DNA of 64,000 bases from an uncultured virus (IMG/VR IMGVR_UViG_3300036715_000208). Taxonomy: Duplodnaviria > Heunggongvirae > Uroviricota > Caudoviricetes. The stretch's first letter is position 1; each line of letters starts with the position of its first letter. The stretch lies in IMG/VR virus record IMGVR_UViG_3300036715_000208. The stretch is one strand, 5' to 3'. Below the pieces are notes generated by a model. It was not told where the DNA came from. It worked only from the letters and a program-made list of their open reading frames with translations, and searched no databases. This document shows positions 13,830-62,053 of this stretch, in pieces. The translations under genes were made by a program, and so were the position numbers.

Positions 13830-13833
13830 GTGA

Positions 13834-19269: not shown

Positions 19270-19314
19270 ATTGATTTCTCCTTGTTAGGGGTAGCCGACG
19301 AGGCTAGCCATGTA

Positions 19315-25249: not shown

Positions 25250-25287
25250 AGAGATAGGTATGGGATCGTCCTCCCATACCTATCTCT
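25250..25287. repeat. perfect 16-bp inverted repeat (hairpin; RNase III site or terminator)
   Basis: agagataggtatggga-tcgtcc-tcccatacctatctct. Confidence 0.8.
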
Positions 25288-25294
25288 ACACACC

Positions 25295-25579
25295 TTACAT
25301 ATCTAACTTCAATAAACCCCTTGCGGTAGATTTATTGATACACTTCATAACACTTACAAACCTTCCGCGTTTGTTGGCATCATACCCCACGCCATCGGTT
25401 CCCCATGAATGTCCGTTACACAATTCGTGTGCCAACATCTGCACACTAAACAACACATCGTCGAATTTCTCAGGGGATACTGCACCGACATATAGTTCGA
25501 CTACGGTATCTCTAACCTCAAAGATTCCTCCAATGTCTTGGAGCCGTTGCCCCCACACCACTAGATCGGAATATTTCAT
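25295..25579 (-). CDS. early hypothetical protein
   Basis: 94 aa, AAGGAG RBS. Confidence 0.65.
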   Translation of the reverse strand: MKYSDLVVWGQRLQDIGGIFEVRDTVVELYVGAVSPEKFDDVLFSVQMLAHELCNGHSWGTDGVGYDANKRGRFVSVMKCINKSTARGLLKLDM

Positions 25580-25611
25580 GATATCTCCTTAGATTGTTTC
25601 ATCCTGCATAC

Positions 25612-25800
25612 TTATCCACAAACTGGACGAATAGCACCGACATGATACTTGGCGAGAATCTTAGCCTCGATAACCTTGCGGGTTACCTTACCCTCAAAGT
25701 ACTTGACGGCAAGTACATAGTACGCTTCCCAAGACTTGACGCTATTGTGTGCAATAGCAAACCTTAGGGATTGTTGCACAATTTCCTTCGATGGCTTCAT
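25612..25800 (-). CDS. early basic hypothetical protein
   Basis: 62 aa, GGAG RBS. Confidence 0.6.
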   Translation of the reverse strand: MKPSKEIVQQSLRFAIAHNSVKSWEAYYVLAVKYFEGKVTRKVIEAKILAKYHVGAIRPVCG

Positions 25801-25883
25801 GGCATATTCTCCAGTTAGTGGAACGATACAGAGAGGGAGGGATTCTCAGGATAGAGAATCCCCCACACTACGAACCGTTAACC

Positions 25884-26255: not shown

Positions 26256-26810
26256 ATTGACTCCAAGCGAAACAAGTCTGGCTACTTTCCGTTCCGAACA
26301 TCGGATCGGTGATACCCTCTCCCACCGAAGTGGGCTATCCGTTCATCACTTCGGGCGGATTGTTGGATATGCATGGATATGCAGACCAAGGAATCTCACA
26401 GAGCAGAGGGGGGTACGGGGGGGAACGCCAGACGCGCGCGTTAGGAGACACCCCCTCGTAAATTCCCGACCCCTACAGAGGTTTTACCCCTGAGGTTCTA
26501 TCTTATGAAACCCAGACACCCCCCGTTAGGGGGGGAGCTGGATAGATGGACCCAGGTGACAGACGGGGGAATGTCCCTGGGGCGGTATGGTTGACTGTCG
26601 GTCCTAGTCCCTAGGCACATTGTCACCCATAATGAAATGTCTTAATGGATTCTAAACTGAAGGGTCTACCCATGTATAGCCCCTAAGGGGTATACTTAGG
26701 TATATCCCCTTAGGGGGTATATTTCAATTTAGCTGTCCCTAACAGGTAGACAGCTTGCTGTTTCTTTAAGGTCTTTCCATAGACCGTGGAATAAAACATC
26801 TAGTTCTATC

Positions 26811-26838
26811 CTACGTTACGTCTCCTACTGGTTGTAAT
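26811..26838 (-). promoter_or_regulatory. candidate phage RNAP promoter, copy 3 (phiOR-like position)
   Basis: Minus strand ATTACAACCAGTAGGAGACGTAACGTAG. Confidence 0.6.
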
Positions 26839-29900: not shown

Positions 29901-32900
29901 CTGATTTAGAATACGCATATGACCAGGTGCTTTATCAAACTCAATTGCTTCGGGAGATTTCATAATATTCATTTCAGCACGAATAGTCCACTGACTGTGT
30001 GGCAGTGTCTTGCCACCCTCAGTTGCTTGATCAACTAAATTTTCTACGCAAATAGCCCACATAGAACTATCAAATTTCTTTTCACTAGGTGTTTGAAGAA
30101 TTCTTGATAAACTGTCAATACTAATAGCACTGGGTAGATATAGTGCATCCTCTCTAACAACATCCGATGCTTTTTCTCTAGAGTATCCAAAGTCCATTAA
30201 AGCTTGTATTATGTTCTCTGAAGGAATAGAAGCCCATGATTGGGTATGTGAATTCTTAACAACAAGAACATTCTTTTTTGGAGCAGCAAGATACGCAGAA
30301 ATAATTGGTGTACTAGAGTGGTAATCTCTTGCAACGTTAATATTCTCTCCCCAGAATCTTATACCCTTATCTGTGGTCGATACAAGATCAACAGGAACAG
30401 TTCCTCTTTGACCCCTGTGGAATAGAACAGGAATTCCATAATCATTCTTCCACATAATGTCATTACCTTCTGCATCTGTGAAGAACTCTTTAAACTTTAC
30501 TACTCGCTGTTCGTTACTAAGTTTAATAGGAGACAAATCACGATATATTGCAGCAACTACTTTAAAGGCTTCAACTCTAAGATAGGGACTTGACAGGGAT
30601 CTACTAGACAGCCACGCTCTAATATATGGTTTTGCTTTATCGAATGTATCTACTTTAGTATCTTTAATAACCTCTCGTAGTGCATAGATACTTTTTTCAG
30701 TATGCCCCGATACAGCCAGACTATCATTGCTTTTTTTGAGTGCTTTTTCAAAAATAGCATCAGCTATAGCCGATGGTGGTTTCGTTGTATCTTTTACTAT
30801 TACATCATGAAAAAATTTAGTAAGAATATCTTCAGTTTTAAGTGTATTATTTTCTATAATATATTTTATAAAAACACTAAGCTGTTGATCTGGAAAAGTT
30901 TGTACAAGAAAAGTAGCTAATGCTCCCTCGGCACTATTCAGACCATCATAACCATAAGTAAAGTTATGTGGGTAGTTTAAATACAAAGTACGTAATGATT
31001 CTAGGGTATGGTTTGATTCTATTTTTTTAAACGTAGATAACGAAGGGGTAGTTTGTTTCTCTCCGTTATAAAGCATAAGTAAAGCTGACCATATTTTAGT
31101 AAACTGTTCTTCAACACTTTGATATTTTACAGTCTTAATTGAAGTTTTAATATTACTCATATCTACGTTAGAATCAAAAGCAGAGTACATAAAGTTTGCA
31201 AGAGTAGAATCATATGAATCCAATCCATTAATGATTTTTACTTGTCCAGCTTTTGGAAACTTATCTTGAAATTCTTTAAATGCACTTTTTGGATCTACCG
31301 TATTAGGATCAAACTTAGGAAGTTTTGTTACAGGAGTTTGTTGTGAAGAATTAACATCTTCACCTTGAATAGCCTTATTAAGTTTTGCACCTATTACCTT
31401 GTACTCTAATGCCCACCACGCTTCTTTCATCTTTACATCTACAGCGTATGTTGTTCCCTTTAGCCATTCAACATAGAAGGTGTCGGAGTCTCGAATAATT
31501 TTTTCAATGATATCAGAATGTACTGTAAGGTTTTCTTTTTCTAAGAAAGTTACAATTGAAGCAAGAGCTTGAAGAGACTGAGATTGAAGACCCTTTGGCT
31601 TTTCCCCTGTTTGAATATAACCATATATTTTTTGAACTGCAGGATTTTGAATTGCTGCAAGTAACAAAGCTGAGTCGAATTTAAATACGTTTAAACTAGT
31701 ACCATCTAATAAACCACTTTCAACGCTTGCTGTAAGCTTAACACCGTTTAGTTTACCAGGTTCTTCTATTTTTTCTAAGACCTTTAATCCAACTTGTTTA
31801 TAGAGAGGCTGTATTAGACTTTGAAGAATTGGATTTCCAATTGCCTTTGTAGGATTACTTGTAATCCAGGCCTTTACGAGTGTGTTAAAATCTTTAAAAG
31901 TATCTAAAAGAATCTTTGTAACATTGTCTGGATTATCAAGTAAGTTGTTTTTATTTAAATAATAAAGTACATTTCCCATAAATATTCGTTTAGCGTCTGA
32001 AACTGAATTAGAATATCCTAAAGTATCATCTGTTGAAACACTAATAATCTGTTCCATAGTTTCTTTTGAAACTGGAGAATTGTATATATAGTTTGTTTTT
32101 GAGAATAGATTGTGATTTGGAAAACCAGCTTCAAGTTCATCCTTTAACACAGTTTTAACAGACTCTAGTTGTTTAAAACCCACACTAGGAGACTGATCTA
32201 CTAGGTGATTTACAGCAGAACTTAAAGTATTAGTCCAGTTTGCAAAACCAATATTAGTTTTTTCCTTTACAGCTAGATCTACAAAAGACTTTATTAGTTC
32301 GTCTGTAGTAACATTATAAGCTTCACTTACTAATACTATACTTCTTGCTATTTTCCATGTGGTAGCGTTCATACTTGCAACGTGTAAGTATGTAATAGCA
32401 CCCTTTTCAAAAAGATCATCTATAACAATTTTAACTTGTTCTGTAGGAGTGCCTTTAAATTTATTAGCTATATCTATAGATATCGCTTTATCTGTTTGAC
32501 CTATAAATTTTACTCCTAAGTATTCTTTATCAGTAAACAGATTTGAGATAGTAAGATATATCTGTGAAACAGTATGATTAATTCCGTGTTCTTTTGATAT
32601 CCGCAGCCGACTAAAATCATTTTCTAGTGCTGAATTAATAACAGAAGAAACCTCAGATGTAGTAGTACTAATACTATTAACTACTTTGTTTTCTCCCTTT
32701 AGGACATTAGCAACAATATAATCTCTACGTTGTTTTAATATGCTACTTAATTCAAGTGCTTCCTTTGGATCACTGATAACACTATTAATTAAGTTATCAA
32801 TTACACCATCTGACATTGTTTCTCTAAGATTTTTAGCTTGATCAACTATCTTGACATCAGATAGAGTTTCAAACATACGAGCTGTAGATGGATTGGTTTG

Positions 32901-35900
32901 ATCATTTCTAAATGATTTTAATTCTCCAACAACTGGTCCAAACTTATCTCCTTTTGGCGCACCTTGTGCTCTCCACTTAAGAGATCCTCCAGTATCTAAT
33001 ACGCGCCCATGTGCATCCATGTTGTCAAACATGAATCCTGGGCCTCCACCAATATCCCAGTTAGCTAGCCAAGCTGATGCAATAAATACATCATGACCTT
33101 TGATAACGTGGTCTATATTATTCATATCGTATTTTTCTACATCAGAAAGCCAACTGGATAAAAGGATTGGACCCTTTAAACCAAACGCTGGTTCTTTAGA
33201 TATATTAGAATATACCGATGTGTGACCAAGAGATATATACATTAGTTGAGCAAGAACTTCATTCTCAGCGTGACTAAGACTCTTTGCTTCTTTAGCGTAA
33301 TAGAGAATATTATTTTCATCGCTTAGTTGTTTTGCTTTATTTGAACCAAGCTGGCCTCCAATGATTTTAAACTTAGATTCATCTAGTTCACGAATGTGTA
33401 CAGAGTATTGATTTAAAACCTGCATTTTCTTATAGACTCGTCCCTTACTTGCCTTAAGATCATCTCTTAATTTAAGTTGAGTAGTTACCTCAGGTGGAAC
33501 AAACAAGGCTTGATTAAAGATAACAGGAGTAGTCCTAGGATCTTTACCACTGTTTACAAAACTCGAAAGAGGGTTAATAGTGTTGTTTTGTCCTAGTCTA
33601 AATAAGACTGTTCCGCGTTCAGAGCTTGTAACGTAAGGAAGAAAATCACTAAGACCAGTAATCATAGATGCTGCCACCAAACGGTTCTCTGGATCCATAA
33701 TAGTTTCAATTGTTGAAACTTGAATAGACTTGAGCAATTTAGTAGAGGCTATCTGTAGAGATTGTGGAGTTACTTTAATTTCAGCTGCTTCTATTATAGC
33801 TGAAAAAAAATCTTTAAATGCGTTCTTATCTGTTATCTGATTATCTGAAATGATTGACATCTGACTTATAAATGCTGGTTCTGTCATTCCTTCTGATACA
33901 AACTCATGTAAATTTAATCCACCATAGTATAGATTTATACCTTCAGAACCCCAAGTGGTTGTTAGTTCATTACCAAAATTAGTGAAATCATTAACATATT
34001 GTCTTAGTTCAACTGGTAAAAGACCAGAATCAATATATCTAATATATGCAATGAATAATTTCCTTAGTGAAGGTGGCATTCTAACATCAGTAGATAATGC
34101 ACTTTTAATAGCATCTATATAATTTTCACCACTCAGCTCTGAAAATCCTTTATAGTCCTCATATGTCCTAATTCGTTCTGAGGTAAGAGCGTGAAAAATT
34201 TCATGTAATACGTCCGATTCACGCATAGTTTTATGTGCAACCAGGCCTATTATTCTTAGTTCATTAAAGAAAGCAGCAAGACCGACTTTATCATTTGCAG
34301 CCATTACAAGAATATCCTTAAGCATTTCTTGTACACCATCAATCTTCTTAAGTTCATTAACAAGCTTTGAATAATTATGATTATATGTAGATAGTGCGTC
34401 TAGTAATTCAGATCCATTCTTTATGTTTCCATATATTACATCCGACATTACTTTTCTAAACTCAACAGACTCGGTAGTACGAATAGAATTAATTTCACTA
34501 AGCAGCTCTGGCTTAATTGGTTCTGTTCTTCCACTTTCCATATATCCAGATACTATAGAATCAAGGTGATTAAATGCTTCTTCTAGTGATCCTTGGTTTA
34601 GAACAGTAGTTGTATTTTTATCTTTTAAATTCAACTCACCAGACATAATAACATTCGCCGCCTCACTATAGCCACGCAGTCTAAGCTCATTAGCAAAGTT
34701 TTGAAGTTCAGATCTTAGTTCTATTTCCCAGCTTACTACATTCTTTTCAGTAAGCATATCAAGACCTAGCATGTTTGCACGTAGGTTAAATGCACTTCTT
34801 AGGTTGTCTTCCCTGTTTCCAGGCAACCAATAGGTAGCTCTTCTTGCTGCAAAGTATTCAGCTAGCTGAGTCTTTCCATTTTTAATTAGTTGTTCGTGTA
34901 GAATACCAGCAGTAAATGTAAGTAATGCACTCTCATTGTTAGCTGCAAAGTTACTCATTGACTTAGTATCTCTACCACTAGATGTCATTTGCTCGCCAAT
35001 AGATATTTCATCTCCGTCCCTGTTCATTTGAACAAGTCCGCGTATCTTCTTCTTGGTTCCTCTGGATCCTTCATTGGCATCTAGATTCTTAATAACCCCT
35101 CTAACATACTTCTTAGCAACTGCATCGTTACGAAGATCAAGCTCACCGTATGAGTCTTCACCAGAAGCCCAAGCTAAGAATATATCTTTTGGATTGTCTG
35201 TATCCCTAGCTCCAAGCCTTATGGCAACATCTCTCATAGTTTGTGGTGATCCTTCAAGCTCATTCAGAAGATCCGTAATATCAATATTCTCTCTGTCCTT
35301 AGCATAAAAGATATCAGAAAGTTTAGAATATGTTTTTATGTTAGATACTTCAAATAAAGAATTAGCTTTAGCAAGTTCAATCGAACCATGATCTACTACT
35401 GATTCTCCAAGTCTACCAATACTTACTCTATTACGGCTGTTCTCAAATCTAGTTACAAAGGCTTTTCTTCCGTTGTAGTTTTTAATAAGTTGCTTATCTT
35501 CAATAGTTTGGTTTTTCTTTTCCCTAGCAGTTTCGTAGAAAGATTTATTATCTTCTAGATACTTAATACCACTCTCATAGTTTACTGCGTTATCTTTTAC
35601 AAAGGATGATGCCTTATTAAACTCAGCTATCTCTAGTTGATTTCTAATGTGCTTATCACCTAGTAAGAATAAGCTTATCTTATCTTCTGGTATACCAGTT
35701 GCAATAGACATAGCGGATATGTTTTCAGGAGTTGGTTCTCTTAGAGCAACCTCAACTTCTTTCATATCGCTTAATCTTAAGACATCTTCTCTTACAATAG
35801 CAAACGCCTCTAAGGTGGCATCGTCAAGTCCAACTAACCCATCAAGTGTTTCTCTTGCAATTACATTCTTAAGCTCTGCTATTAGATATGTGAGGGGTGG

Positions 35901-38900
35901 TCTTGGTGCTGTGGGGTCATTAGTCTCTTGAAATTTCTTCCAAGCTTCAAGCAATGCTGGAATTCCTTCTGTATTGTTTCTTACAAATACAACCAGATCA
36001 TCTAATTGAGTTTTAGATGCAATACTAAGTTCGCTTCCAATTTCCTTTGCGGTTTTTTGGATTGTTCTTAGTCTTCTGATGGTAGTATTAATTCCAAGTT
36101 CTTGTGGAGTTCTTGTTGGATCTTCCTCAAGATTAATTGCCTCTCTTGATAATACCTTGTCAGCCGAAGATTCTTCCTTGGGCAATAGTAAATCAGCTAC
36201 GGCAGCTACCGAAGTTATATCAGTAGCTTCTTCTAGAGTTCTTGCAACATCAGCTGCAGTCTCAGCAGTAGCTCTTGTCTCTTCTCTCTCAATTGCTCTC
36301 AGTGTTGCGGTAGTTGCTTCTGTTCCTGTAAGGTGTACGGGAAGACCAGCTCCATCAACAAATCCAGTTGGTGTTTCTAATTCATCTAGAGTAGACATAA
36401 TTTCTTCTGATGAAATAACTTCTACCTTTGGTTCAGATGTCTTTACTCTTCTATTCATTTCAGAGATAGCCATATCTCTTGTTACAGATCTTGTTATCTT
36501 CTTTAATTCTAACTTATTAGTTGTGGTATTAAAGTCTGGCTTATAACTTAAAGTTACATCGTATACACCAAGGTGTTCTTCGTTTGCTAGGTTTAGAAGT
36601 ATATCATCTGAAATCTTTTTCATATCACTAGGGAGTGCAATATCAAGTAAAGATAGATTTAACTTTACTGGATTCTTTGCCGCACGTTCTCCTTCAACTG
36701 CTATTGCTTTTAGGGAAGATACAACAGCATCCTTTGTAAGACCAGCAGTTAGTGCTAATCTTATAAGCTTCTTGGTTGGAGAACCAACCACAGCAGACTT
36801 AATATCTTCAATCAGTTTTGTAACTGAGATTCTTTTTGCAGCTGATCCAGCAATTACTGGATCGTTCTTAAGCCTAGCCTCAGCTCTTGACTTCTGTAGC
36901 TTTGCTTTATAATCATTGAACTGTGCTTCTCCTAGAATCTCAGCTCCAATGGCATTTCTTTGTTCTAACGGAAGTTGTGCAAAGATTCTTCTATAAGATA
37001 CATCGAAGAATTCGCTGATCTTATCGTTGTTTCTATTCATAAACTTCTCATAGACAGATACTGATTCTGGTGTCATTTCAAGACCAGCTTCTAATGCTTC
37101 CTGTGACTTGAACTGCTCTCCTAGGTTTCCTGAGTGATCTCCAAGTCTATGAAACAGACGCTGAATTGCAGTGCTAGGGGCTTTGCCCTTACCAGACATT
37201 AGGTTCTTTACAAACGTAGCCCACCCATTAGCAAACTTTTCCTCAGCCTTTATGATTTTGTTAATCTTGTTCTGAGCTTCAGCTTTAAGTTCGGGTGTTT
37301 CACCTTCCTTAGCTTGCTTCTCAAGGATAGCAAACTCTGGATCAGTAGACCAAATCTCCTCTTCATTACCAACCCAATCAGTGAACTTCTTCCACTCTGA
37401 GTCAGTAATTCCTACGGCATGTCTTGCCTTTACAGCTTCTTCAGACCTACCAATGAATGTAAATCTATGGTAGTGGCCCATCTCATGAGCAATACTACCT
37501 AGATCTGATTCCTTAGTTGATTGAATTAGTGCTCTTGTTCCACTTAAGACAATGTTTGCCGTTGCTTTCTCATCAATAGTTCCAGCAGCACTCTTTATGA
37601 TTCTCATTAGGTGATCTTCTGGAGAAAATCCTAATGTCCTCATAATAATACTAGAAACAGTTGCTTCTTTTTTATTCATTCCAAATACAGAAGCGATTGA
37701 TTCAATGCTTGGATCCTTTGCCTTATTGAAAACATCATCAAAGATAAACTCAACTTGCTTTCGCTTTGCTGCGTCTTTAATCTTTGACACTTCTTTCTTA
37801 ACTTTTTCCTTAAGACTACTAACCCATACCTCATGAATCTTTTCTTTAGCTGCTTCCATATTCTCAGTAAACTTACTCATTGTAGTAATGTTATCTGGTG
37901 TATATGACGCATTATTTTTAACATCAAGTTCAACACGAACTCTACTTCCATCTCTTTTTAGTTCAGATTCTGGAGTAGCAACTAATCTTCTCTTTGATCT
38001 AACTACCTCATTAGTAGCTGGGTCAAACATAATAGCAAATGTTGGATCATTTGTATCGGTTGCATCTGTTAAGTAATGTAATTTCTTTTTTCCCTCTTCT
38101 TCTTTAGTGCCAAGCCCAAGAGCTGATCTAAAGATTTGCTTTGCAGTTTCAGTTGGGATTACTCTTCCACCAATATTGACTTCTGGATCTGTAGAAGACA
38201 TTATTGATTGTAATAGTTTAGATACATTTGCTTCATCAGTATTTCCAGCAAGATATCCTGCTGTTGTTTTGTATGTACTGAAGTCTGCATTATCCATGAT
38301 ATCAAGTCTTCTACCAAGCAGTCCTTCGGCTTCAGATAAAATGTCTGAACCAGTAAGTCCAATCTGTTCAACTCTTCTATCTAAGATCTTAGTATCAAGC
38401 AATCTACTGATGTGTCTAACTCTAAGTTCTTGAGAAGCATTCTTTACAGCTCCAGTTAGATCAGTAAGGAGTCTACCTTCTGAGTTGGCTTGAAGTGGAA
38501 ACATCCCGCTGTTGTTTGAGAACTCTCTATAACTGTTAATAGTTTTAACAGCATCGTCGTAACTGAGATTGTGTTCATCTAAGAACTTCTTATCCAGAAG
38601 TTGCATAAACATTGTACTCATGTGTGGATCAACACCAGCAACTCTACGCATTGCAGCTTCTCCTGCAATTCCAGTTGCCTTCTCTAGGGCATCTGCAACC
38701 TTGAGTGCTTCTACAGTATCTAGGTTCATCTTAGCAGCAATGGTAGAATCAAGCCGTCCAAATAGACGATCTCCATTCAACATTATATTTGTAAAGTTTC
38801 TTCCATCTTTACCAGCCATGTATCTATCAATTGAATTTCCAAAAGCAATACCTCGACCGTCACTGAGTTCTTCTCCGTAAACGATCAAACCTTCTTTGGT

Positions 38901-40268
38901 AGTTGCCCAACCGTCAAGAGAATTAGCAATTGCCTTTCTCCAGTTTACCCAGTCTCCCTTACGATAGTATTTAAAGTCACCTAGCGCACCTAGACCAAAC
39001 CTCATTACTCCCAGCATTCCTACTGCAGCTAGTCCGCTAGTGATTCCTTGTGTAATTGCACTATCGTAATCGTATTTCATTACTTTATCTGTATCCTTAA
39101 ATACAAGACTACGCCAGTCATATTGATCCTCTTGATCAGCAAGTGCAGTGGTAAAACCAGCAGCTCCACCCTCAGTAAATATTGCAATAGCTCTTGCTAG
39201 TGCTGTTTTAGAGGCTGATCTACCAGCACTCTTGAAAACAGTTGCTTTAAGTCCAGCAAATACTGGTCCTTCAATAAGACCTGTTACTGGTCCTGTAAGT
39301 TTTTGTACACGTGCTGCCGCTCTTGCTAGTTGAGATACCCTAAGTGTTGTTGCAGTAGCTGCAGAACCAGATACTACAAGTTCTGTACCAACTGCTTGTA
39401 TTGTTCCCAAGCCAGCGGTAAGAATAGTTGCCGCAACCATGTCACGTGCCATAAGCGGATCTTTAAATCCTTCCCAAGCACCAGCAGCAAACTTAAATAC
39501 AGCACCCGTGTCTTGTTCCCATACACCCATTCTGGTATTAATAACAGACTGTTTTGCAGCTTCCATAATTCCTACAGTAAACGCAGTTTCGTTTAAAGTA
39601 GGTGCTACATAATCATTAAAATTTATTCCAGCTCTTTGAATATACTCATAAGCATCTGGATTCTTCTTCTTCCAATTTACAAATGTCTCTTGTTTCTTTT
39701 CTTCTGTCCACGAAGAATCTTTTTCTGCCAACCTAGTTTTTAATCTCTTATAGTCTCCCTCAATATCTGTCTCATGGAAGAATTTTTCAAAACCTTCTAC
39801 TATCCCCATAAACCAATTACCAACTCCTCTAGCTTTTTCTGAGTAAGTAAAAGCTTCGTCGCTTGGTAAAGGAAATCCTTCAGCTTTACCTTTAGATGCA
39901 TTAAGTCTTGCTTGTTCTAATTCTATATTTCTTTCTCCCCAACCTCTCGCTGATTGAGACTGCTGAATAGCAAATCCAGAATAACCACGATTAGCTCTAG
40001 AACCAGTATCATCTACTACATTAAAATTAAGATTACCAATTGCCTTAAGTGTCTTTAAACCTTGTTCTTCTTTAGCTAATTCTATGTTGGCATTTTGTCT
40101 ATCCCACGTAGAAGTGTTTTCTAAATCTTGTGAAATACTATTGGGTAGTCCTGCAAACTGAGCCGTTAGTGGCTTTGCAAAAGGATCCTGGGTCGTAGCT
40201 AGATCTTGATTATTACTATTATCAATAAAATCTTGGAGAACCCGAAGTGGATCATTACTTGTACTCAT
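26937..40268 (-). CDS. giant internal virion/ejection protein (T7 gp16 position), polyvalent
   Basis: 4443 aa; last of the internal-virion cluster; hydrophobic N-proximal helices; internal HEMGH, HEIFH, kinase-like and ART-like modules. Confidence 0.8.
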   Translation of the reverse strand: MSTSNDPLRVLQDFIDNSNNQDLATTQDPFAKPLTAQFAGLPNSISQDLENTSTWDRQNANIELAKEEQGLKTLKAIGNLNFNVVDDTGSRANRGYSGFAIQQSQSARGWGERNIELEQARLNASKGKAEGFPLPSDEAFTYSEKARGVGNWFMGIVEGFEKFFHETDIEGDYKRLKTRLAEKDSSWTEEKKQETFVNWKKKNPDAYEYIQRAGINFNDYVAPTLNETAFTVGIMEAAKQSVINTRMGVWEQDTGAVFKFAAGAWEGFKDPLMARDMVAATILTAGLGTIQAVGTELVVSGSAATATTLRVSQLARAAARVQKLTGPVTGLIEGPVFAGLKATVFKSAGRSASKTALARAIAIFTEGGAAGFTTALADQEDQYDWRSLVFKDTDKVMKYDYDSAITQGITSGLAAVGMLGVMRFGLGALGDFKYYRKGDWVNWRKAIANSLDGWATTKEGLIVYGEELSDGRGIAFGNSIDRYMAGKDGRNFTNIMLNGDRLFGRLDSTIAAKMNLDTVEALKVADALEKATGIAGEAAMRRVAGVDPHMSTMFMQLLDKKFLDEHNLSYDDAVKTINSYREFSNNSGMFPLQANSEGRLLTDLTGAVKNASQELRVRHISRLLDTKILDRRVEQIGLTGSDILSEAEGLLGRRLDIMDNADFSTYKTTAGYLAGNTDEANVSKLLQSIMSSTDPEVNIGGRVIPTETAKQIFRSALGLGTKEEEGKKKLHYLTDATDTNDPTFAIMFDPATNEVVRSKRRLVATPESELKRDGSRVRVELDVKNNASYTPDNITTMSKFTENMEAAKEKIHEVWVSSLKEKVKKEVSKIKDAAKRKQVEFIFDDVFNKAKDPSIESIASVFGMNKKEATVSSIIMRTLGFSPEDHLMRIIKSAAGTIDEKATANIVLSGTRALIQSTKESDLGSIAHEMGHYHRFTFIGRSEEAVKARHAVGITDSEWKKFTDWVGNEEEIWSTDPEFAILEKQAKEGETPELKAEAQNKINKIIKAEEKFANGWATFVKNLMSGKGKAPSTAIQRLFHRLGDHSGNLGEQFKSQEALEAGLEMTPESVSVYEKFMNRNNDKISEFFDVSYRRIFAQLPLEQRNAIGAEILGEAQFNDYKAKLQKSRAEARLKNDPVIAGSAAKRISVTKLIEDIKSAVVGSPTKKLIRLALTAGLTKDAVVSSLKAIAVEGERAAKNPVKLNLSLLDIALPSDMKKISDDILLNLANEEHLGVYDVTLSYKPDFNTTTNKLELKKITRSVTRDMAISEMNRRVKTSEPKVEVISSEEIMSTLDELETPTGFVDGAGLPVHLTGTEATTATLRAIEREETRATAETAADVARTLEEATDITSVAAVADLLLPKEESSADKVLSREAINLEEDPTRTPQELGINTTIRRLRTIQKTAKEIGSELSIASKTQLDDLVVFVRNNTEGIPALLEAWKKFQETNDPTAPRPPLTYLIAELKNVIARETLDGLVGLDDATLEAFAIVREDVLRLSDMKEVEVALREPTPENISAMSIATGIPEDKISLFLLGDKHIRNQLEIAEFNKASSFVKDNAVNYESGIKYLEDNKSFYETAREKKNQTIEDKQLIKNYNGRKAFVTRFENSRNRVSIGRLGESVVDHGSIELAKANSLFEVSNIKTYSKLSDIFYAKDRENIDITDLLNELEGSPQTMRDVAIRLGARDTDNPKDIFLAWASGEDSYGELDLRNDAVAKKYVRGVIKNLDANEGSRGTKKKIRGLVQMNRDGDEISIGEQMTSSGRDTKSMSNFAANNESALLTFTAGILHEQLIKNGKTQLAEYFAARRATYWLPGNREDNLRSAFNLRANMLGLDMLTEKNVVSWEIELRSELQNFANELRLRGYSEAANVIMSGELNLKDKNTTTVLNQGSLEEAFNHLDSIVSGYMESGRTEPIKPELLSEINSIRTTESVEFRKVMSDVIYGNIKNGSELLDALSTYNHNYSKLVNELKKIDGVQEMLKDILVMAANDKVGLAAFFNELRIIGLVAHKTMRESDVLHEIFHALTSERIRTYEDYKGFSELSGENYIDAIKSALSTDVRMPPSLRKLFIAYIRYIDSGLLPVELRQYVNDFTNFGNELTTTWGSEGINLYYGGLNLHEFVSEGMTEPAFISQMSIISDNQITDKNAFKDFFSAIIEAAEIKVTPQSLQIASTKLLKSIQVSTIETIMDPENRLVAASMITGLSDFLPYVTSSERGTVLFRLGQNNTINPLSSFVNSGKDPRTTPVIFNQALFVPPEVTTQLKLRDDLKASKGRVYKKMQVLNQYSVHIRELDESKFKIIGGQLGSNKAKQLSDENNILYYAKEAKSLSHAENEVLAQLMYISLGHTSVYSNISKEPAFGLKGPILLSSWLSDVEKYDMNNIDHVIKGHDVFIASAWLANWDIGGGPGFMFDNMDAHGRVLDTGGSLKWRAQGAPKGDKFGPVVGELKSFRNDQTNPSTARMFETLSDVKIVDQAKNLRETMSDGVIDNLINSVISDPKEALELSSILKQRRDYIVANVLKGENKVVNSISTTTSEVSSVINSALENDFSRLRISKEHGINHTVSQIYLTISNLFTDKEYLGVKFIGQTDKAISIDIANKFKGTPTEQVKIVIDDLFEKGAITYLHVASMNATTWKIARSIVLVSEAYNVTTDELIKSFVDLAVKEKTNIGFANWTNTLSSAVNHLVDQSPSVGFKQLESVKTVLKDELEAGFPNHNLFSKTNYIYNSPVSKETMEQIISVSTDDTLGYSNSVSDAKRIFMGNVLYYLNKNNLLDNPDNVTKILLDTFKDFNTLVKAWITSNPTKAIGNPILQSLIQPLYKQVGLKVLEKIEEPGKLNGVKLTASVESGLLDGTSLNVFKFDSALLLAAIQNPAVQKIYGYIQTGEKPKGLQSQSLQALASIVTFLEKENLTVHSDIIEKIIRDSDTFYVEWLKGTTYAVDVKMKEAWWALEYKVIGAKLNKAIQGEDVNSSQQTPVTKLPKFDPNTVDPKSAFKEFQDKFPKAGQVKIINGLDSYDSTLANFMYSAFDSNVDMSNIKTSIKTVKYQSVEEQFTKIWSALLMLYNGEKQTTPSLSTFKKIESNHTLESLRTLYLNYPHNFTYGYDGLNSAEGALATFLVQTFPDQQLSVFIKYIIENNTLKTEDILTKFFHDVIVKDTTKPPSAIADAIFEKALKKSNDSLAVSGHTEKSIYALREVIKDTKVDTFDKAKPYIRAWLSSRSLSSPYLRVEAFKVVAAIYRDLSPIKLSNEQRVVKFKEFFTDAEGNDIMWKNDYGIPVLFHRGQRGTVPVDLVSTTDKGIRFWGENINVARDYHSSTPIISAYLAAPKKNVLVVKNSHTQSWASIPSENIIQALMDFGYSREKASDVVREDALYLPSAISIDSLSRILQTPSEKKFDSSMWAICVENLVDQATEGGKTLPHSQWTIRAEMNIMKSPEAIEFDKAPGHMRILNQKRAETAIREGIASAKAAGTSTTKLEADLSTLIDSASVRRRDLLEMKLNEETEPEDLDVMTSMIKGVSAFQRSNMSHINGRMGIGSKNIPTNITTKFKGKSYRDLSEDDRRSFVLDVLMPTIAKSVGDRNSTAGVFSTFSNSVVGKGVNSRIGGASRYGDTADSSSMGLQFLSKILDPTMDLRNGEVEGTFNLFSMDMLIAESTNMYSRSGLLAIKNKINSTVKNAGEISEINNMAWKYSADLDKLPEGIPNRELITELIQGIQKYNTVMGETLNKYGNLLQPMDPLKYGTIHKINNLAVRDQEGFVKALTDHVLKKTRENNEISVVTADALGWLKITREQGSTDNIVRIEIPEDSPLAVLGSGVMEWNGKTKELFGKDSITKLSLEDQGKHSDGLESSKDYIDSYKRLYAGRGPDYTAVKQSMTIAKDRYIGIEDGDSKTGKPRSESVGGGKNYSEERILSHSDIAMNPDLSRYFQNNVYELINQHIHSQLTDTLMTKYITDHFGTKMSWVDLVAILSKYGEESQNKANLSLSEQQSRVRGYDRMKNIWESHIGKMSRSKDGLDRFYEDLLTNSRTPVLVASGIRAALTSTGEVGRAILTSNHHKGALMQVIPNLIKTLQLFSKDKRRTIQEVSSATHWLRNMSSDHLLSRSEVLPENPFAGAMLGTRQGGWCKRWAEEWRAVGDINKSDTSIVNRSMNRLGIVASRFGAPLAWVNDITTTLHVWNAQENFTKNSSTFLKLAEKMQTASLDNLADFNQLAKRCGLAAREALNLSTAGLLNPELVKLMIEAAKDQRNYTDGLLDVQKLYIWAGDDKTKIDTINRMGAYINFTARQTNTDPTLLDLRINQSAFAKSMGVFMQFLLSHSVQEIGRRRRYSTASYGKHLAGLFMMEAVTYSLARRKDEENKDKWIWEEATEKPIDLTIRLASGMPMLGSYQFIGSLARQVIQNTYKTLSDEKTDTFRLPDLYSAPAENLPNKALETFRDLF

Positions 40269-40280
40269 GTATTTTCCTTA

Positions 40281-40310
40281 AAATAGGAGGGGGTCTTTCG
40301 ACCCCCATCC
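40281..40310 (-). terminator. hairpin/attenuator between the gp15-like and gp16-like genes
   Basis: Minus strand GGATGGGGGTC-GAAA-GACCCCCTCC-TATTTT. Confidence 0.65.
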
Positions 40311-46493: not shown

Positions 46494-48164
46494 TTATCTC
46501 CTGTAATAATTGTTTAAAATGTTAGGTGTCTGTTTGTTTTCTTGAGCTGATGTAATGTTCTGCCCATAGTATCTATCACCAAGGAGTACGGACATTCGCT
46601 TGTTTCCAAGCCATGTGTTAACCATATCCTTGTGTTCTCGTTTCTTATTTCTATTAATGATACTATCTGGATCTAGGACAAGTTCACTAGACCAGTTCTT
46701 AACTGCGCTTGCAAGGATGTCAACTCTATCGTCATGCTTGAGAGCACCCCGACGATCCTGCATCCTTGTAAGTTGTATCTGTGTTTCCTTATCCTTGATC
46801 GCTGACGAATCAAATACAAGACGATGCTGTGCCATGACTGGCTCAAGAGTATCCAGTATTCTTCTTTCTTTGTTTCCACTTACTTTGAATTCCTCAACTG
46901 CAACCTTTCCACAGGAAGAATAGATCAGTGGTTTCAACAGGGATGAAAACATTCCATCTCCGTAGTTTGATTCCACTAGGATCCGACGAACCTTGTAAGC
47001 ATTTGCAAGCTTTGCAATTTGCATCAATGTTACGTTATCGTATCCTCCTTGAAGACCTGTCAGTGCGTGTACAACGAGGTATCCATTCACAAAGGATACA
47101 ACACAGGCAGCTGTTTCGTCAGCTCCTCTACCAGAGGGATCAATGAACATACAGGTTTCTGTATACTCTATCATAGTGGGGGATACCCACATAGGACCAT
47201 ATAGAAAATCATTATTAAGACCATATGATGGAATCTTTAATGGTGTTCCTCTTGCCCATACTACCTTCTCTGGAAACAACTCTGCGGATGTGTCCATAAT
47301 AATTAGATCTTCTAATCTTAGTGGAAACTTTCTGGCATCACTGAGGGTTGGATCAAGTAAATAGTGTAGAGCAAAGTGACGTGGACCAATCTTAGCCATT
47401 CTTTCATCAAGAACATGCTGAGGGAATCTACCAGGATCTACTGTAGATCCTGGCTCTACCTCTAACTGTAGGATGTATTCATCTACATGAAGCATCTGTG
47501 ACTCAATGTCTGGATCTGGCATTACTGCTGGAAACTTTACAATTGGATAGGGAAGACGAAGGTAGATAGAGTCAGTACTTTGGTATGTACCTAGGAAGAT
47601 GATTCTTCCGTGGTCAACTGGGTTCCTGATCTGTTCTAGTTCTGTTAGCCTGTCCAATAACCTACCACGGGCGGAAGGGGTATCTGAGTTCTTCTCGATC
47701 TCAATATCGTCCAGTAGAATGTAGTCGGCGTGTGAGCCTGTTAGCTGCCCCGTCACGCCCTTTGCGTAACAAGATAGGTCTTGCCCCTTCTTTGTGCGGC
47801 AAGCCACGTTAAAGCCAAATGCGTTGTCCTTATCGAAGTCCCTGGGTACTATGTGTGCCATGTAGGGGGTAGAGGATAGGATCTGTCTAACCTGTGAGAT
47901 AAACTTAATTGCCTTATCGGCTCCTGCCGACACTACCATGATGGTTGCATCGGGATCTTTTAGTAACAGCCAGCTGGCATATGATGCCATGATTGTGGAT
48001 TTACCAGCACCACGACCAGCCTGTAGCTGGAAGTCTCGTAGTCCTGTTTGAATCTTATTTGCGATTGCATATTGTAGGGGAGATGGTTCCCCAAGACCTA
48101 GATACTTAAAGGAAAAAAACAAATGGTTTCTAAAATCCTCTAGTACTTCTTCTGGTACATTCAT
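46494..48164 (-). CDS. terL: terminase large subunit, T7 gp19-like
   Basis: AGRGAGKS, LTGSHAD..LLDDIE, IDPSGRGADET, ESNYGDGMF and HDDRVD; start moved to MNVPEE after AAAGGAGG. Confidence 0.97.
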   Translation of the reverse strand: MNVPEEVLEDFRNHLFFSFKYLGLGEPSPLQYAIANKIQTGLRDFQLQAGRGAGKSTIMASYASWLLLKDPDATIMVVSAGADKAIKFISQVRQILSSTPYMAHIVPRDFDKDNAFGFNVACRTKKGQDLSCYAKGVTGQLTGSHADYILLDDIEIEKNSDTPSARGRLLDRLTELEQIRNPVDHGRIIFLGTYQSTDSIYLRLPYPIVKFPAVMPDPDIESQMLHVDEYILQLEVEPGSTVDPGRFPQHVLDERMAKIGPRHFALHYLLDPTLSDARKFPLRLEDLIIMDTSAELFPEKVVWARGTPLKIPSYGLNNDFLYGPMWVSPTMIEYTETCMFIDPSGRGADETAACVVSFVNGYLVVHALTGLQGGYDNVTLMQIAKLANAYKVRRILVESNYGDGMFSSLLKPLIYSSCGKVAVEEFKVSGNKERRILDTLEPVMAQHRLVFDSSAIKDKETQIQLTRMQDRRGALKHDDRVDILASAVKNWSSELVLDPDSIINRNKKREHKDMVNTWLGNKRMSVLLGDRYYGQNITSAQENKQTPNILNNYYRR

Positions 48165-48177
48165 AGTACCTCCTTTC

Positions 48178-48209
48178 AAAAACCCCCATCCCAGATCAAG
48201 GGACGGGGG
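48178..48209 (-). terminator. intrinsic terminator immediately upstream of the terL RBS
   Basis: Minus strand CCCCCGTCCC-TTGATCT-GGGATGGGGG-TTTTT. Confidence 0.8.
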
Positions 48210-48395
48210 CGGTAGCGAGATATCCACACAGGGGATCGCCCTATGCGCATAGCCCGATGATGGCTCCCCAATAGACGGAGAGCCACAGGGCGACCGTTGC
48301 CATGCCCGTCAAGGCATAGCAGGTCGAATAGCGTAACCGCATCTGTCCCCTCGTTGCCAGCGTGGGGTCTATGTCAGATGGATCGCTTGAATGCC
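48178..48395 (-). ncRNA. candidate structured non-coding RNA between terS and terL
   Basis: GC-rich island with several helices whose G-U pairs work only on the minus strand; 6-bp loop-loop complement; ends in a terminator. Confidence 0.6.
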
Positions 48396-48599
48396 TTAGC
48401 CTAATTTCTTAAGCCTGAATGGGATAAGGTTGTCCAAGGTTTCTGCACGAATATTCGCAGCGTCTTCCTTGGTTGGTTTGTTATCTGCGATTACACGGGC
48501 AACAACTTGGTATAGTCCAGGACCACGCTTCTCTGGATCCATAAGATCCTCTACTAAGCAGTCCACCAATAGTTCCTTCAGTGTATCAATGTTATTCAT
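48396..48599 (-). CDS. terminase small subunit, T7 gp18-like
   Basis: 67 aa upstream of terL; helical, with PGLYQVVARVIADN and LIPF resembling gp18. Confidence 0.65.
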   Translation of the reverse strand: MNNIDTLKELLVDCLVEDLMDPEKRGPGLYQVVARVIADNKPTKEDAANIRAETLDNLIPFRLKKLG

Positions 48600-48656
48600 T
48601 TAGCACTTGCAATTCTTATTGCCACACTTCTTGCATGGCTTCTTTGGAGTTTTCAT
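48600..48656 (-). CDS. 18-aa Cys/Lys-rich micropeptide
   Basis: MKTPKKPCKKCGNKNCKC; AAAGGA RBS; exactly fills the gap. Confidence 0.45.
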   Translation of the reverse strand: MKTPKKPCKKCGNKNCKC

Positions 48657-48657
48657 A

Positions 48658-48993
48658 TTACTTTCCTTTCTTTATATTACCATAGCGTTGCAGCAAATTG
48701 CGGCCTTTCGCTACGGCTGATGCCTTGTCGCCTTTGTGATTCCAAGCTTCTAACGATAGCTTGAGCCTAGTCTTCTCGCCCTTCTCATCCTTGAGTGGAC
48801 CAGCTGATGATCCCATGCGTACTAGGAATGAACCTTGTCTACGTATTTCCTCTGGAGTAGTGGGGGTACGCTTTACTGGGGCTTTTAGGTTTGATCCAGT
48901 AGCTCGATTGTACTTGTCACGACCCGCTTGAGACAATCCACCTTGTGGGTTCTTGTCTTTCTTATTCATATTAACGGATGGTTTCTTTGGCAT
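48658..48993 (-). CDS. basic conserved phage protein (DUF6321-like)
   Basis: KNPQGGL..AGR..YN...GSNLKAPV, SFLVRM and PLKDEKG motifs. Confidence 0.7.
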   Translation of the reverse strand: MPKKPSVNMNKKDKNPQGGLSQAGRDKYNRATGSNLKAPVKRTPTTPEEIRRQGSFLVRMGSSAGPLKDEKGEKTRLKLSLEAWNHKGDKASAVAKGRNLLQRYGNIKKGK

Positions 48994-62019: not shown

Positions 62020-62053
62020 AAAAACCTACGCCCCCATTTAAGGGGGCATAGGC
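62020..62053 (-). terminator. T-phi-like terminator after the major capsid gene
   Basis: Minus strand GCCTATGCCCCC-TTAAAT-GGGGGCGTAGGT-TTTT. Confidence 0.85.

What the first reader, a model, noticed from the sequence alone, without database searches (positions are those of the whole stretch)
48178..48395. Candidate novel ~220-nt structured RNA between the terminase genes, with a loop-loop complement
Seen (minus strand): helices CATCTG/CAGATG, CGACC-TGCTATGCC/GGCATGGCA-GGTCG, TGGCTCTCC/GGGGAGCCA, an enclosing GCGGT/ACCGC, and a terminal terminator. The G-U wobbles make sense only on this strand. The internal-loop ATAGAC (48367-48372) is exactly complementary to the hairpin loop GTCTAT (48271-48276), which suggests a pseudoknot or kissing loop. 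The region is a GC island in an AT-rich genome and is non-coding once the terL start is corrected to 48164. Inference: a discrete ncRNA. Intermolecular loop-loop pairing next to the packaging motor genes recalls phi29 pRNA, which I do not know of in T7-like phages. A cis-regulator or ribozyme is the alternative.
Basis: partly seen in the sequence, partly recalled or inferred. Interest (0 to 1): 0.85.

Follow-up and report, generated by a model that had tools for sequence, protein, structure and literature searches.

The report
Conserved structured RNA upstream of terL
Between the two DNA-packaging (terminase) genes of an uncultured freshwater T7-like phage lies a real, conserved, many-hairpin RNA element of a kind not yet catalogued, which most likely tunes how much of the downstream packaging gene is made rather than acting as a packaging RNA.

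Summary
Window 48178-48395 (minus strand) is a non-coding GC island (0.60 against about 0.40) that folds far better than shuffles (z -4.98). It lies between a 67-aa terS-like ORF and terL (true start 48164) of an uncultured T7-like phage of about 65-68 kb. Homologous elements sit at the same place in 20 of 108 assessable related terL loci. A further 21 keep only the core: UUCGCUAC(C) plus a strong hairpin. Helices covary strongly: 23 of 39 pairs show compensatory changes, and 98.8% of cells are paired against 31-48% in slid controls. G-U pairs outnumber A-C pairs 26 to 1, so the structure belongs to the gene-sense transcript. No Rfam 15 family matches. The ATAGAC/GUCUAU loop complement is real and kept in all six long-form members. 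It never covaries, and its hairpin is missing from the 12 shorter members, so it is a peripheral contact. The phi29 pRNA analogy fails every testable membership feature. My best reading is a cis-acting terS-3'UTR/terL-leader element. It ends in a terminator-type hairpin, one of several such intercistronic hairpins in the late region. It is preceded by a recognition domain whose partner is unknown. No antiterminator was found. It is a new RNA family, its function is inferred, and the interest is moderate.

The parts
48396..48599 (-). 67-aa terS-like ORF whose stop codon (48396-48398) immediately precedes the element
   Evidence: ORF list. Weak match to PF11123 DNA_Packaging_2, E 0.0068, below the curated cut-off. 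An ORF of 52-88 aa sits at this position in relatives.
48178..48395 (-). whole structured RNA element (long form, 'type A')
   Evidence: MFE -108.9 kcal/mol, z -4.98. GC 0.60. Model R1, built only from short-form relatives, finds it at E 1e-6. It is the only R1 match in the 64-kb window.
48340..48380 (-). P1 helix (CAUCUG/CAGAUG) enclosing the conserved internal loop ACAUAGAC (48367-48374) and a variable hairpin P1a (48347-48366)
   Evidence: In the 12 short-form relatives 7 of 7 P1 pairs show compensatory changes. In the long form 2 of 5 P1 pairs and 4 of 5 P1a pairs do. CAUAG is invariant in all 19 distinct full elements.
48330..48335 (-). conserved linker UACGCU
   Evidence: Invariant in all 19 distinct full-length elements (alignments).
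48291..48326 (-). P2, a two-tier hairpin (CGACC/GGUCG outside, UGCUAUGCC/GGCAUGGCA inside)
   Evidence: helices 6 and 7: 95.8% and 98.1% of cells paired, 2 pairs with compensatory change. The homologous P2 in the short forms has 6 of 8 inner pairs with compensatory change.
48252..48290 (-). P3: CCC/GGG closing a hairpin GGCUCUCC-GUCUAUU-GGGGAGCC, whose loop (48270-48276) is complementary to the P1 internal loop. Found in the long form only.
   Evidence: The stem covaries (3 of 10 pairs with change on both sides) while the loop sequence is kept. The hairpin is absent in all 12 B/B' members.
48221..48251 (-). conserved AUGCGC followed by hairpin P4 (long form only)
   Evidence: helix 10: 91.5% paired, 2 compensatory pairs. 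It is replaced wholesale in L015 although that locus's terL is 99% identical.
48211..48220 (-). core motif UCUCGCUACC (family consensus UUUCGCUAC(C))
   Evidence: Present in 41 of 108 assessable loci, always just 5' of the hairpin. It is not enriched in the window (18 matches on both strands at up to 1 mismatch, about 30 expected). It is single-copy at this site, and no more frequent than the reversed-pattern control, in four relatives 92-100% complete.
48178..48210 (-). terminator-type hairpin (11 bp, -23.1 kcal/mol) plus U run
   Evidence: In the short forms 9 of 11 pairs show compensatory changes.
48162..48176 (-). terL ribosome-binding site AAAGGAGG (48169-48176) and start codon ATG (48162-48164)
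   Evidence: Sequence. terL proteins of 8 relatives align from this Met.
46494..48164 (-). terL, large terminase subunit (556 aa)
   Evidence: phrog_38, E 7e-98. PF22530 T7 terminase RNaseH-like nuclease domain, E 1.7e-33.

Best explanation
The region is a conserved cis-acting RNA element within the late polycistronic transcript of an uncultured T7-like phage. It is at once the 3'UTR of the terS-like gene and the leader of terL. It has two modules. (1) A core is shared by all 41 carriers: single-stranded UUUCGCUAC(C) followed directly by an 11-14-bp GC-rich hairpin and a short U run, and in many members the terL Shine-Dalgarno sequence comes within about 10 nt. (2) In 20 carriers an upstream multi-hairpin domain (P1, P2, then P3/P4 or one long 3' hairpin) keeps invariant unpaired motifs (CAUAGAC, UACGCU, CAUCGGGC, AUGCGC) while its stems covary and whole hairpins come and go. 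Shown here: the fold, the strand, the conservation, the synteny and single-copy status, and the absence of any Rfam match. Inferred: the hairpin plus U run ends or attenuates transcription by the phage or host RNA polymerase. That would make terL and the internal-virion genes behind it less expressed than the genes in front. The invariant upstream motifs would be a docking surface for a protein (terS, RNA polymerase or a nuclease) or a tertiary fold. That surface could modulate termination, processing or 3'-end stability.
For: - **Fold:** z -4.98.
- **Synteny:** the element always lies between the terS-like ORF and terL on the coding strand. Of 108 assessable non-redundant loci, 20 carry the full element, 21 the core only and 67 neither; 8 further loci had too little flank.
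- **Homology of forms:** model R1, built from 7 short-form sequences, recovers B' at E 1e-19 and the long form, window included, at E 1e-5 to 1e-7. None of the 77 chance loci from the pattern scan matched.
- **Covariation, short forms (12 sequences):** 98.8% of cells paired against 31-48% when slid, 23 of 39 pairs with compensatory changes, 0 of 500 shuffles as high.
- **Covariation, long forms (6 sequences):** 91.5% paired, 18 of 72 pairs compensatory.
- **Strand:** G-U against A-C cells are 26:1 and 47:10.
- **Hairpin:** -19.5 to -26.4 kcal/mol in 18 of 18 members.
- **Same architecture elsewhere:** a strong hairpin plus U run, then a ribosome-binding site, recurs after the capsid gene (about 62024) and before the 4443-aa gene (about 40286). 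The phage has its own T7-type RNA polymerase.
- **Contiguity in RNA libraries:** contigs in RNA libraries join the element to terS and to more than 5 kb of upstream genes (records 2 and 5).
Against: - No termination, processing or binding has been measured.
- U runs are short, 2-5 U in the first 8 bases after the stem, so many members may terminate poorly.
- A simple terminator does not need 150-190 nt of conserved structure, so the main function of the upstream domain is unexplained.
- No alternative (antiterminator) pairing exists. The 5' arm of the hairpin is not consistently paired upstream, and forbidding the hairpin costs 17-24 kcal/mol in all 18 members.
- Seven members have a further 70-80 nt between the hairpin and terL, so tight coupling to the terL ribosome-binding site is not universal.
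- The RNA-library contigs may be DNA carry-over (warning).
Confidence: 0.45

Rival explanations
1. It is a discrete trans-acting non-coding RNA. Termination at the hairpin, or processing of the terS 3'UTR, would release a stable RNA of about 160-220 nt. Its conserved single-stranded motifs would bind another molecule: a host or phage RNA, a defence protein, or the packaging motor, via intermolecular ATAGAC/GUCUAU loop pairing as in phi29 pRNA.
For: The most conserved single-stranded stretch sits directly 5' of a terminator-type hairpin. By recall, seeds of 3'UTR-derived bacterial sRNAs occupy the same position. The fold is compact and the P2 hairpin carries a GNRA tetraloop in 8 of 12 short-form members (my reading of the alignment). 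A 6-nt loop-loop complement is kept in 5 of 6 long-form members and as 5 nt in the sixth, while its stem covaries. Such a complement is rare by chance (17 of 5000 shuffles). A precedent for structured RNAs from the terS-terL boundary is cabRNA (PMC10686824, passages read).
Against: No sigma-70-type promoter-like site was called next to the element on the minus strand. No repeated phage-promoter motif was found in the intergenic regions. RNA-library contigs are continuous with upstream genes. The U tails are short. The loop-loop pair never covaries and is missing in all 12 B/B' members and in the minimal form. pRNA fails every feature tested here; the features and their calls are in the membership table. 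The 8-nt cis complement at 48707-48714 is not conserved in any of 23 relatives checked.
Confidence: 0.2
2. It is a riboswitch-like or protein-responsive attenuator. The upstream domain would sense a ligand or protein and switch the hairpin between terminating and read-through states.
For: The architecture has a conserved domain, then a terminator hairpin, then a ribosome-binding site. Unpaired nucleotides at helix junctions are invariant, while peripheral helices are variable or optional.
Against: No mutually exclusive antiterminator was found in any of 18 members. Terminator arms differ completely between close relatives while the upstream motifs stay fixed. The minimal form keeps only the 9-mer and the hairpin. 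Nothing in Rfam matches at E up to 10.
Confidence: 0.1
3. It is an RNA-processing site: a new self-cleaving ribozyme, or a substrate for RNase III or RNase E. Cleavage would uncouple the terS and terL messages and leave protective hairpins at the new ends.
For: The location is intercistronic in a T7-like phage. By recall, T7 has an RNase III site (R18.5) just after its gene 18. The element has perfect 11-14-bp stems and conserved junction nucleotides.
Against: No known ribozyme family matches. The roughly 40 conserved unpaired positions are spread over five segments rather than one catalytic core. Nothing here can test cleavage.
Confidence: 0.08
4. It is a DNA-level signal: a packaging (pac) site bound by terS, a unique phage-polymerase promoter whose transcript starts with the hairpin, or a homing-endonuclease target.
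For: The site is single-copy per genome and lies next to the terminase genes. CGCTA occurs twice as a direct repeat. Relatives L060 and L073 appear to carry an HNH-type ORF inserted between terS and terL (my reading of the DNA). The core motif equals the reverse complement of 23S rDNA 1929-1942. By recall, that stretch is a known homing-endonuclease target region.
Against: The asymmetry of G-U over A-C (26:1) and compensatory changes in every major helix point to selection on the sense-strand RNA, not on duplex DNA. Only 9-10 nt are conserved, too few for a T7-type promoter, and the positions upstream of the motif are not conserved.
Confidence: 0.07

Closest known systems
Intercistronic hairpin terminators of T7-like phages (T-phi type; recalled from the T7 literature, not from a call)
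   Same: A stable GC-rich hairpin plus U run between late genes, read through in part so that downstream genes are made at lower levels. This phage has such hairpins after the capsid gene and before its giant gene as well.
   Different: Here the hairpin is preceded by an invariant 9-10-nt motif. In half the carriers it is also preceded by a conserved multi-helix domain of 110-170 nt. The other two hairpins in the window lack this motif.
Candidate structured RNAs (csRNAs) found upstream of large-terminase genes in IMG/VR (PMC10690425; passages and supplementary tables read)
   Same: Covarying RNA structures within 25 bp upstream of terminase genes of uncultured phages, some containing predicted terminators.
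   Different: Those candidates are 29-151 nt long. I checked 11 of the 14 that lie upstream of genes with COG5410 or COG5362 terminase domains, and all are marine or human-associated, not freshwater. Three of the 14, and the candidates upstream of other terminase-domain genes, were not checked. Their alignments (two zip files) could not be read, so overlap with part of this element cannot be excluded.
cabRNA of staphylococcal phages (PMC10686824; passages read)
   Same: A structured RNA arising from the terS-terL boundary of a phage late operon.
   Different: cabRNA lies inside the coding sequence, is defined by binding a CBASS cyclase, and different cabRNAs share no sequence homology. The present element is intergenic, conserved in sequence, and found in an unrelated phage group.
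phi29 prohead RNA (pRNA)
   Same: Similar size (120-174 nt), several helices, and two loops that could pair.
   Different: It fails the membership tests listed in the membership table: no Rfam match, a different phage type with terS and a full nuclease-bearing terL, a different genome position, and a loop pair that does not covary and is absent from most family members.
Riboswitch or leader attenuators
   Same: A conserved folded domain directly upstream of a terminator hairpin and a ribosome-binding site.
   Different: No competing antiterminator structure and no known aptamer class.

Membership tests
phi29 pRNA (Rfam family for bacteriophage pRNA) | Sequence and structure match the curated covariance model | tested here: not met
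   No Rfam 15 family reaches its gathering score in the window except three tRNAs. At E up to 10 over 48000-48700 only two unrelated weak matches appear, neither inside the element.
phi29 pRNA (Rfam family for bacteriophage pRNA) | Two loops whose intermolecular complementarity is kept by covariation among relatives | tested here: inconclusive
   ATAGAC/GUCUAU is complementary in 5 of 6 long-form members and over 5 nt in L107, but both sides are invariant (helix 3). The partner hairpin is absent in all 12 B/B' members.
phi29 pRNA (Rfam family for bacteriophage pRNA) | Host phage is phi29-like: pRNA gene at the genome end, and a packaging ATPase with a vestigial nuclease domain (PMC11476376, passages read); that such phages lack terS is recalled, not from a call | tested here: not met
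   T7-type RNA polymerase, primase-helicase, portal and nozzle. A terS-like ORF. terL carries the T7 RNaseH-like nuclease domain. The element lies in mid-genome between terS and terL.
phi29 pRNA (Rfam family for bacteriophage pRNA) | Binds the portal and is required for DNA packaging | not testable with these tools
   Needs biochemistry.
Intrinsic (factor-independent) terminator | Stable GC-rich hairpin | tested here: met
   11-14 bp and -19.5 to -26.4 kcal/mol in 18 of 18 members. 9 of 11 pairs covary.
Intrinsic (factor-independent) terminator | Run of U directly after the stem | tested here: inconclusive
   The window has U4 after a closing G-U, and the consensus scan calls it a terminator. 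Across the 18 members only 2-5 U fall in the first 8 bases.
Intrinsic (factor-independent) terminator | Transcripts end there | not testable with these tools
   Only assembled contigs of RNA libraries were available. They cannot show RNA ends.
Riboswitch / transcription attenuator | Conserved folded sensor domain upstream of the expression platform | tested here: met
   Covarying helices with invariant junction nucleotides.
Riboswitch / transcription attenuator | Mutually exclusive terminator and antiterminator pairings | tested here: not met
   No consistent upstream partner for the terminator's 5' arm. Forbidding the hairpin costs 17-24 kcal/mol in 18 of 18 members.
Riboswitch / transcription attenuator | Binding of a specific ligand | not testable with these tools
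   Needs in-line probing or similar.
cabRNA (CBASS-activating phage RNA) | Structured RNA from the terS-terL region that binds and activates a CdnE cyclase | not testable with these tools
   Only the position is shared (sequence). cabRNAs share no sequence homology with one another (PMC10686824), so no sequence test exists.

The most novel reading that the evidence does not exclude
The element is released at its terminator as a compact, stable RNA of about 200 nt that acts in trans and forms a new class of phage ribonucleoprotein or antisense RNA. One version: it docks on the terminase or portal during packaging, with the ATAGAC/GUCUAU loops linking copies. That would be a pRNA-like solution evolved independently in T7-like phages. 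Another version: its invariant motif GGA(A)UUUCGCUAC(C) base-pairs with the universally conserved 23S rRNA segment 1929-1942, of which it is the exact reverse complement over up to 13 nt, and so interferes with host ribosomes.
Probability: 0.1. Interest if true: 0.85.

Novelty: new member of a known kind. Interest (0 to 1): 0.5.

Why it matters
Large, well-conserved RNA folds with dozens of invariant unpaired nucleotides are the raw material from which riboswitches, ribozymes and RNA-protein machines have been discovered. This one sits at a fixed position, directly in front of the DNA-packaging ATPase gene. It occurs in a clade of abundant, uncultured freshwater phages that carry their own T7-type RNA polymerase. 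If it controls read-through by a single-subunit polymerase, it would be a natural, compact regulatory part for T7-type expression systems. If it binds terminase or acts in trans, it would show a second, independent use of RNA around a phage packaging motor. Even on the ordinary reading it adds a validated family to the RNA catalogues and corrects the terL start.

Tried and rejected
- **Known RNA families:** Rfam at gathering score and at E up to 10 gave no family for the element. ARAGORN found no tRNA or tmRNA in 47900-48700.
- **Cultured phages:** blastn of the element against 50,697 phage records found nothing. The nearest cultured terL is only about 40% identical.
- **Bacterial genomes:** a scan of species genomes with the terL profile found no relative, so there is no host clue. 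The nearest held virus record, G001, is a 37.5-kb fragment without the element.
- **Pattern scan:** I left out three (L191, L215, L253) because they lie on contigs already held. None of the other 77 matched model R1.
- **Alignment by the model:** model R1 aligned the window and L015 in the wrong register. I therefore analysed the long forms on a separate MAFFT alignment (A3).
- **Phage promoter:** no 11-mer (1 mismatch allowed) shared by 4 or more intergenic regions looked like a promoter. TAATGGATGAA merely overlaps stop and start codons.
- **P3 in the short forms:** GCC/GGC never varies. A longer 3' hairpin (UCCAUCGGGCA...UGCGCC...GGA) fits better but only modestly: 83% paired, 2 compensatory pairs.
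- **Closing helix:** pairing of the 5' flank with UUUCGC is plausible in the long form and in L102/L103, but no better than shuffles in most short forms.
- **Cis complement:** GUAGCGAA at 48707-48714 is absent from all 23 relatives checked.
- **Antiterminator:** none found.
- **RNA-library contigs:** in X16 and X17 (one study) the contig upstream of the element has word depth 20.7 and 28.6, and the terL contig 6.8 and 11.7. The contigs break inside the P4/terminator stretch. That stretch is exactly where two co-occurring variants (window type and L015 type) differ, so the break may be an assembly effect. Depth per contig cannot rank genes, and DNA carry-over is not excluded. I draw no conclusion from the break or the ratio. 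X19 covers only 48284-48634. X18 is probably DNA.
- **23S rRNA likeness:** exact antisense matches of 9-13 nt occur at 23S 1927-1942 in 9 of 9 elements tested. Profile searches of the rrn operon give only E 0.072 and 0.15 at that place, so this may be chance.

Full report
**1. What is in the sequence**

On the minus strand the 67-aa ORF 48396-48599 ends with TAA at 48396-48398, and terL starts at ATG 48162-48164 behind AAAGGAGG. They also contain the two complementary loops, ATAGAC at 48367-48372 and GTCTAT at 48271-48276.

- The minus strand folds to -108.9 kcal/mol (z -4.98; 0 of 200 shuffles as good). The plus strand gives z -2.96.
- GC reaches 0.60, against 0.32-0.52 around it.
- Only ORFs of 36 aa or fewer lie inside the element.
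- The GTG-started extension of terL to 48227 runs through the terminal hairpin. It has no counterpart in relatives, whose terL proteins align from the ATG.
- One claimed helix, GCGGT/ACCGC, is not in the MFE fold and is not kept in relatives.

**2. Context**

All genes in the window lie on the minus strand. Pfam finds a T7-type single-subunit RNA polymerase, T7 primase-helicase, family-A DNA polymerase, portal, capsid, tail tube, nozzle, tail-fibre N-domain and a gp14-like internal protein.

- terL is phrog_38 and carries the T7 terminase RNaseH-like nuclease domain.
- The small upstream ORF matches the T7 gp18-type family PF11123 only weakly (E 0.0068, below cut-off).
- Related near-complete contigs are 62-68 kb.
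- The nearest cultured phage has a terL only about 40% identical.
- So this is an uncultured clade of large T7-like phages, found in lake, sediment and mat samples.

**3. The element is a family**

Searching with terL gave 174 loci, of which 116 have non-redundant upstream regions and 108 have enough flank to judge.

- 20 carry a full element (CAUAG...UACGCU...UCGCUAC).
- 21 carry only the core motif plus hairpin.
- 67 carry neither. Most marine relatives have terS abutting terL.

The 19 distinct full elements fall into three forms:
- a long form (A: window, L015, L021, L022/L111, L108, L107);
- a short form (B: L002-L006, L018, L101-L103);
- a variant (B': L019/L104, L109/L110, L113).

The forms share CAUAG(A/U)C in the P1 loop, UACGCU, CAUCGGGC or UACUGGGC, usually AUGCGC, and UUUCGCUAC(C). 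The forms differ by whole hairpins. The minimal form (C: the L007 and L023 groups) has one or two unrelated hairpins, then UUCGCUACC, then the strong hairpin.

A covariance model built only from seven B sequences finds B' at E 1e-19 and the long forms, window included, at E 1e-5 to 1e-7. It finds nothing in the 77 unrelated loci that a loose pattern scan had fetched, and nothing else in the window.

The 8-mer is single-copy at this site in the window and in four relatives 92-100% complete. It is no more frequent than its reversed control.

**4. The structure is under selection on the sense strand**

| Alignment | Cells paired | Slid controls | Pairs with compensatory change | Shuffles as high |
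|---|---|---|---|---|
| 12 B/B' sequences | 98.8% | 31-48% | 23 of 39 | 0 of 500 |
| 6 long forms | 91.5% | 34-45% | 18 of 72 | 0 of 500 |

- In the B/B' set, compensatory changes occur in P1 (7 of 7 pairs), inner P2 (6 of 8) and the terminal hairpin (9 of 11).
- The long-form figures hold despite register slips for L107 and L015. RNAalifold had already reported 18 of 68 pairs.
- G-U cells outnumber A-C cells 26:1 and 47:10. This is what an RNA read from the minus strand predicts, and it argues against a DNA cruciform or a plus-strand RNA.
- A long 3' hairpin in the short forms has modest support. A closing helix between the 5' flank and UUUCGC is plausible only in some members.

**5. The loop-loop complement**

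A 6-nt complement between unpaired segments is uncommon by chance (17 of 5000 shuffles; 5 nt in 314 of 5000). The GUCUAUU loop is kept while its stem changes completely (window GGCUCUCC, L111 ACCUCUCC, L107 CCAUGUG). The pairing is therefore probably real.

Both sides are invariant, so there is no covariation. L107 weakens the pairing to 5 bp without compensation. The whole hairpin is missing in the 12 B/B' members, which still keep CAUAGAC.

I read it as a peripheral tertiary contact of the long form. The data cannot say whether it forms within one molecule or between molecules.

**6. The 3' hairpin and the question of switching**

The hairpin has 11-14 bp and -19.5 to -26.4 kcal/mol in 18 of 18 members. 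The U run after it is short.

A scan of the whole sense strand for strong hairpins followed by U runs finds eight sites.
- One lies after the capsid gene (about 62024, -24.8 kcal/mol).
- One is the hairpin of this element.
- One lies before the 4443-aa gene (about 40286, -18.5 kcal/mol).
- One lies at about 24803.
- All three late-region hairpins precede the next gene's ribosome-binding site, at 11 to 23 nt.

Intercistronic hairpins are therefore part of this phage's late-operon design. Only the one before terL has the invariant 9-mer and the large upstream domain.

Folding the nascent RNA without the 3' arm shows no consistent partner for the 5' arm. Forbidding the hairpin costs 17-24 kcal/mol. 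There is thus no thermodynamic switch of the riboswitch type.

**7. Expression**

Three metatranscriptome runs from two studies hold contigs with the element. In X16 and X17 a contig of 6.3 or 3.2 kb runs from upstream genes through terS into the element. This fits co-transcription with the genes in front, if the material is RNA. The contigs are of the L015-type variant and break where the two variants differ. Ends, strand and level cannot be read from contigs, so this is weak support only.

**8. Comparison with what is known**

- **Rfam 15:** no match.
- **pRNA:** according to a 2024 review (passages read), pRNA is unique to phi29-like phages and is encoded at the genome end. It compensates for a packaging ATPase with a vestigial nuclease domain. 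Here the phage is T7-like with a full terL, so the membership test fails.
- **cabRNA:** it shares only the terS-terL location (passages read).
- **IMG/VR csRNA catalogue:** a 2023 catalogue of 8,495 candidate structured RNAs lists many candidates upstream of terminase genes (passages and tables read). I checked 11 of the 14 that lie upstream of genes with COG5410 or COG5362 terminase domains, and all are marine or human-associated and 50-96 nt long. Three of the 14, and the candidates upstream of other terminase-domain genes, were not checked. The alignments could not be opened, so partial prior listing cannot be excluded.
- **Full-text searches:** searches for terminase with structured or non-coding RNA terms found nothing on this element.

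**9. How it most likely works**

Shown: a conserved sense-strand RNA fold, single-copy, fixed between terS and terL, ending in a strong hairpin plus U run in front of the terL ribosome-binding site.

Inferred: the hairpin attenuates transcription or stabilises the 3' end of the upstream message, as intercistronic terminators do in T7 (recalled). The invariant single-stranded motifs, above all UUUCGCUAC(C), are a recognition surface for a protein or a tertiary fold that modulates this.

- I put 0.45 on this cis reading.
- I put 0.2 on a released trans-acting RNA; the pRNA-like version is a small part of that.
- I put 0.1 on a true switch.
- I put 0.08 on a processing site or ribozyme.
- I put 0.07 on a DNA-level signal.

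**10. An oddity worth recording**

The core motif is the exact reverse complement of E. coli 23S rRNA 1929-1942. The match is 13 nt in L097 and L102, 11 nt in L111, and 11 nt shifted by two in L023. All 9 elements tested match over at least 9 nt. Profiles of both the short and the long forms place their best hit in the rrn operon at that spot, but only at E 0.072 and 0.15. This may be chance. If it is not, it would point to an antisense or mimicry function.

**11. Verdict**

This is a real and novel RNA family with strong comparative support. The headline analogy to pRNA is not supported, and the function remains inferred.

Noticed in passing
window 48211-48220 (-); L097, L102, L111, L023: The family's invariant motif GGA(A)UUUCGCUAC(C) is the exact reverse complement of E. 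coli 23S rRNA 1929-1942. Matches run to 13 nt in L097 and L102, and all 9 elements tested match over at least 9 nt. nhmmer with both family profiles puts its best rrn hit there, at E 0.072 and 0.15. A second weak likeness (UUACGGCUGCC) falls on antisense 23S at about 1893-1913. This may be chance.
   Followed up: partly
window 48600-48656 (-): An 18-codon ORF (MKTPKKPCKKCGNKNCKC) with its own ribosome-binding site sits directly upstream of the terS-like gene. A similar Cys/Lys-rich mini-ORF ends at the same place in L006 (my reading of the DNA).
   Followed up: no
window about 62024-62053 (-), about 40286-40310 (-), about 24803-24838 (-): Other strong hairpin-plus-U-run sites lie on the sense strand: after the major capsid gene, just before the 4443-aa gene, and at the edge of the large non-coding stretch 24798-25867. 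The first two precede the next gene's ribosome-binding site.
   Followed up: partly
window 48182-48251 (-) compared with L015:1200-1290: L015 has a terL 99% identical to the window's and an identical 5' part of the element, but hairpin P4 and the terminator hairpin are replaced by unrelated sequences that fold the same way. Both variants occur in the same RNA libraries. This looks like module exchange or very fast turnover.
   Followed up: partly
window 26937-40268 (-): A single 4443-aa ORF follows the gp14-, gp15- and gp16-like internal virion genes. It is unusually large for a T7-like phage. I did not analyse it.
   Followed up: no
window 5637-5675, 19304-19342, 26800-26838: A repeat of about 39 nt occurs three times. 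On the minus strand each copy starts with ATG. Two copies lie in intergenic DNA: upstream of the RNA polymerase gene, and at the start of the presumed early region. It may be a regulatory site.
   Followed up: no
L060 and L073, upstream of terL; L066, L069, L076, L084, L088, L042: In other clades the terS-terL gap holds different content. L060 and L073 appear to have an inserted ORF with an HNH-like CxxCH motif. The L066 group has a terminator hairpin followed by a conserved AACCGTTTATAGG that resembles a T7-type promoter (my reading of the DNA, not tested). The junction seems to be a hot spot for regulatory and mobile inserts.
   Followed up: no
L018:480-583, L101:1400-1500: In L018 and L101 the element's hairpin is followed by a ribosome-binding site, an ATG and a short ORF before the real terL start. 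The hairpin therefore does not always abut terL.
   Followed up: no
window 13678-13906 (-): Three tandem tRNA genes (Rfam RF00005, 53-73 bits).
   Followed up: no
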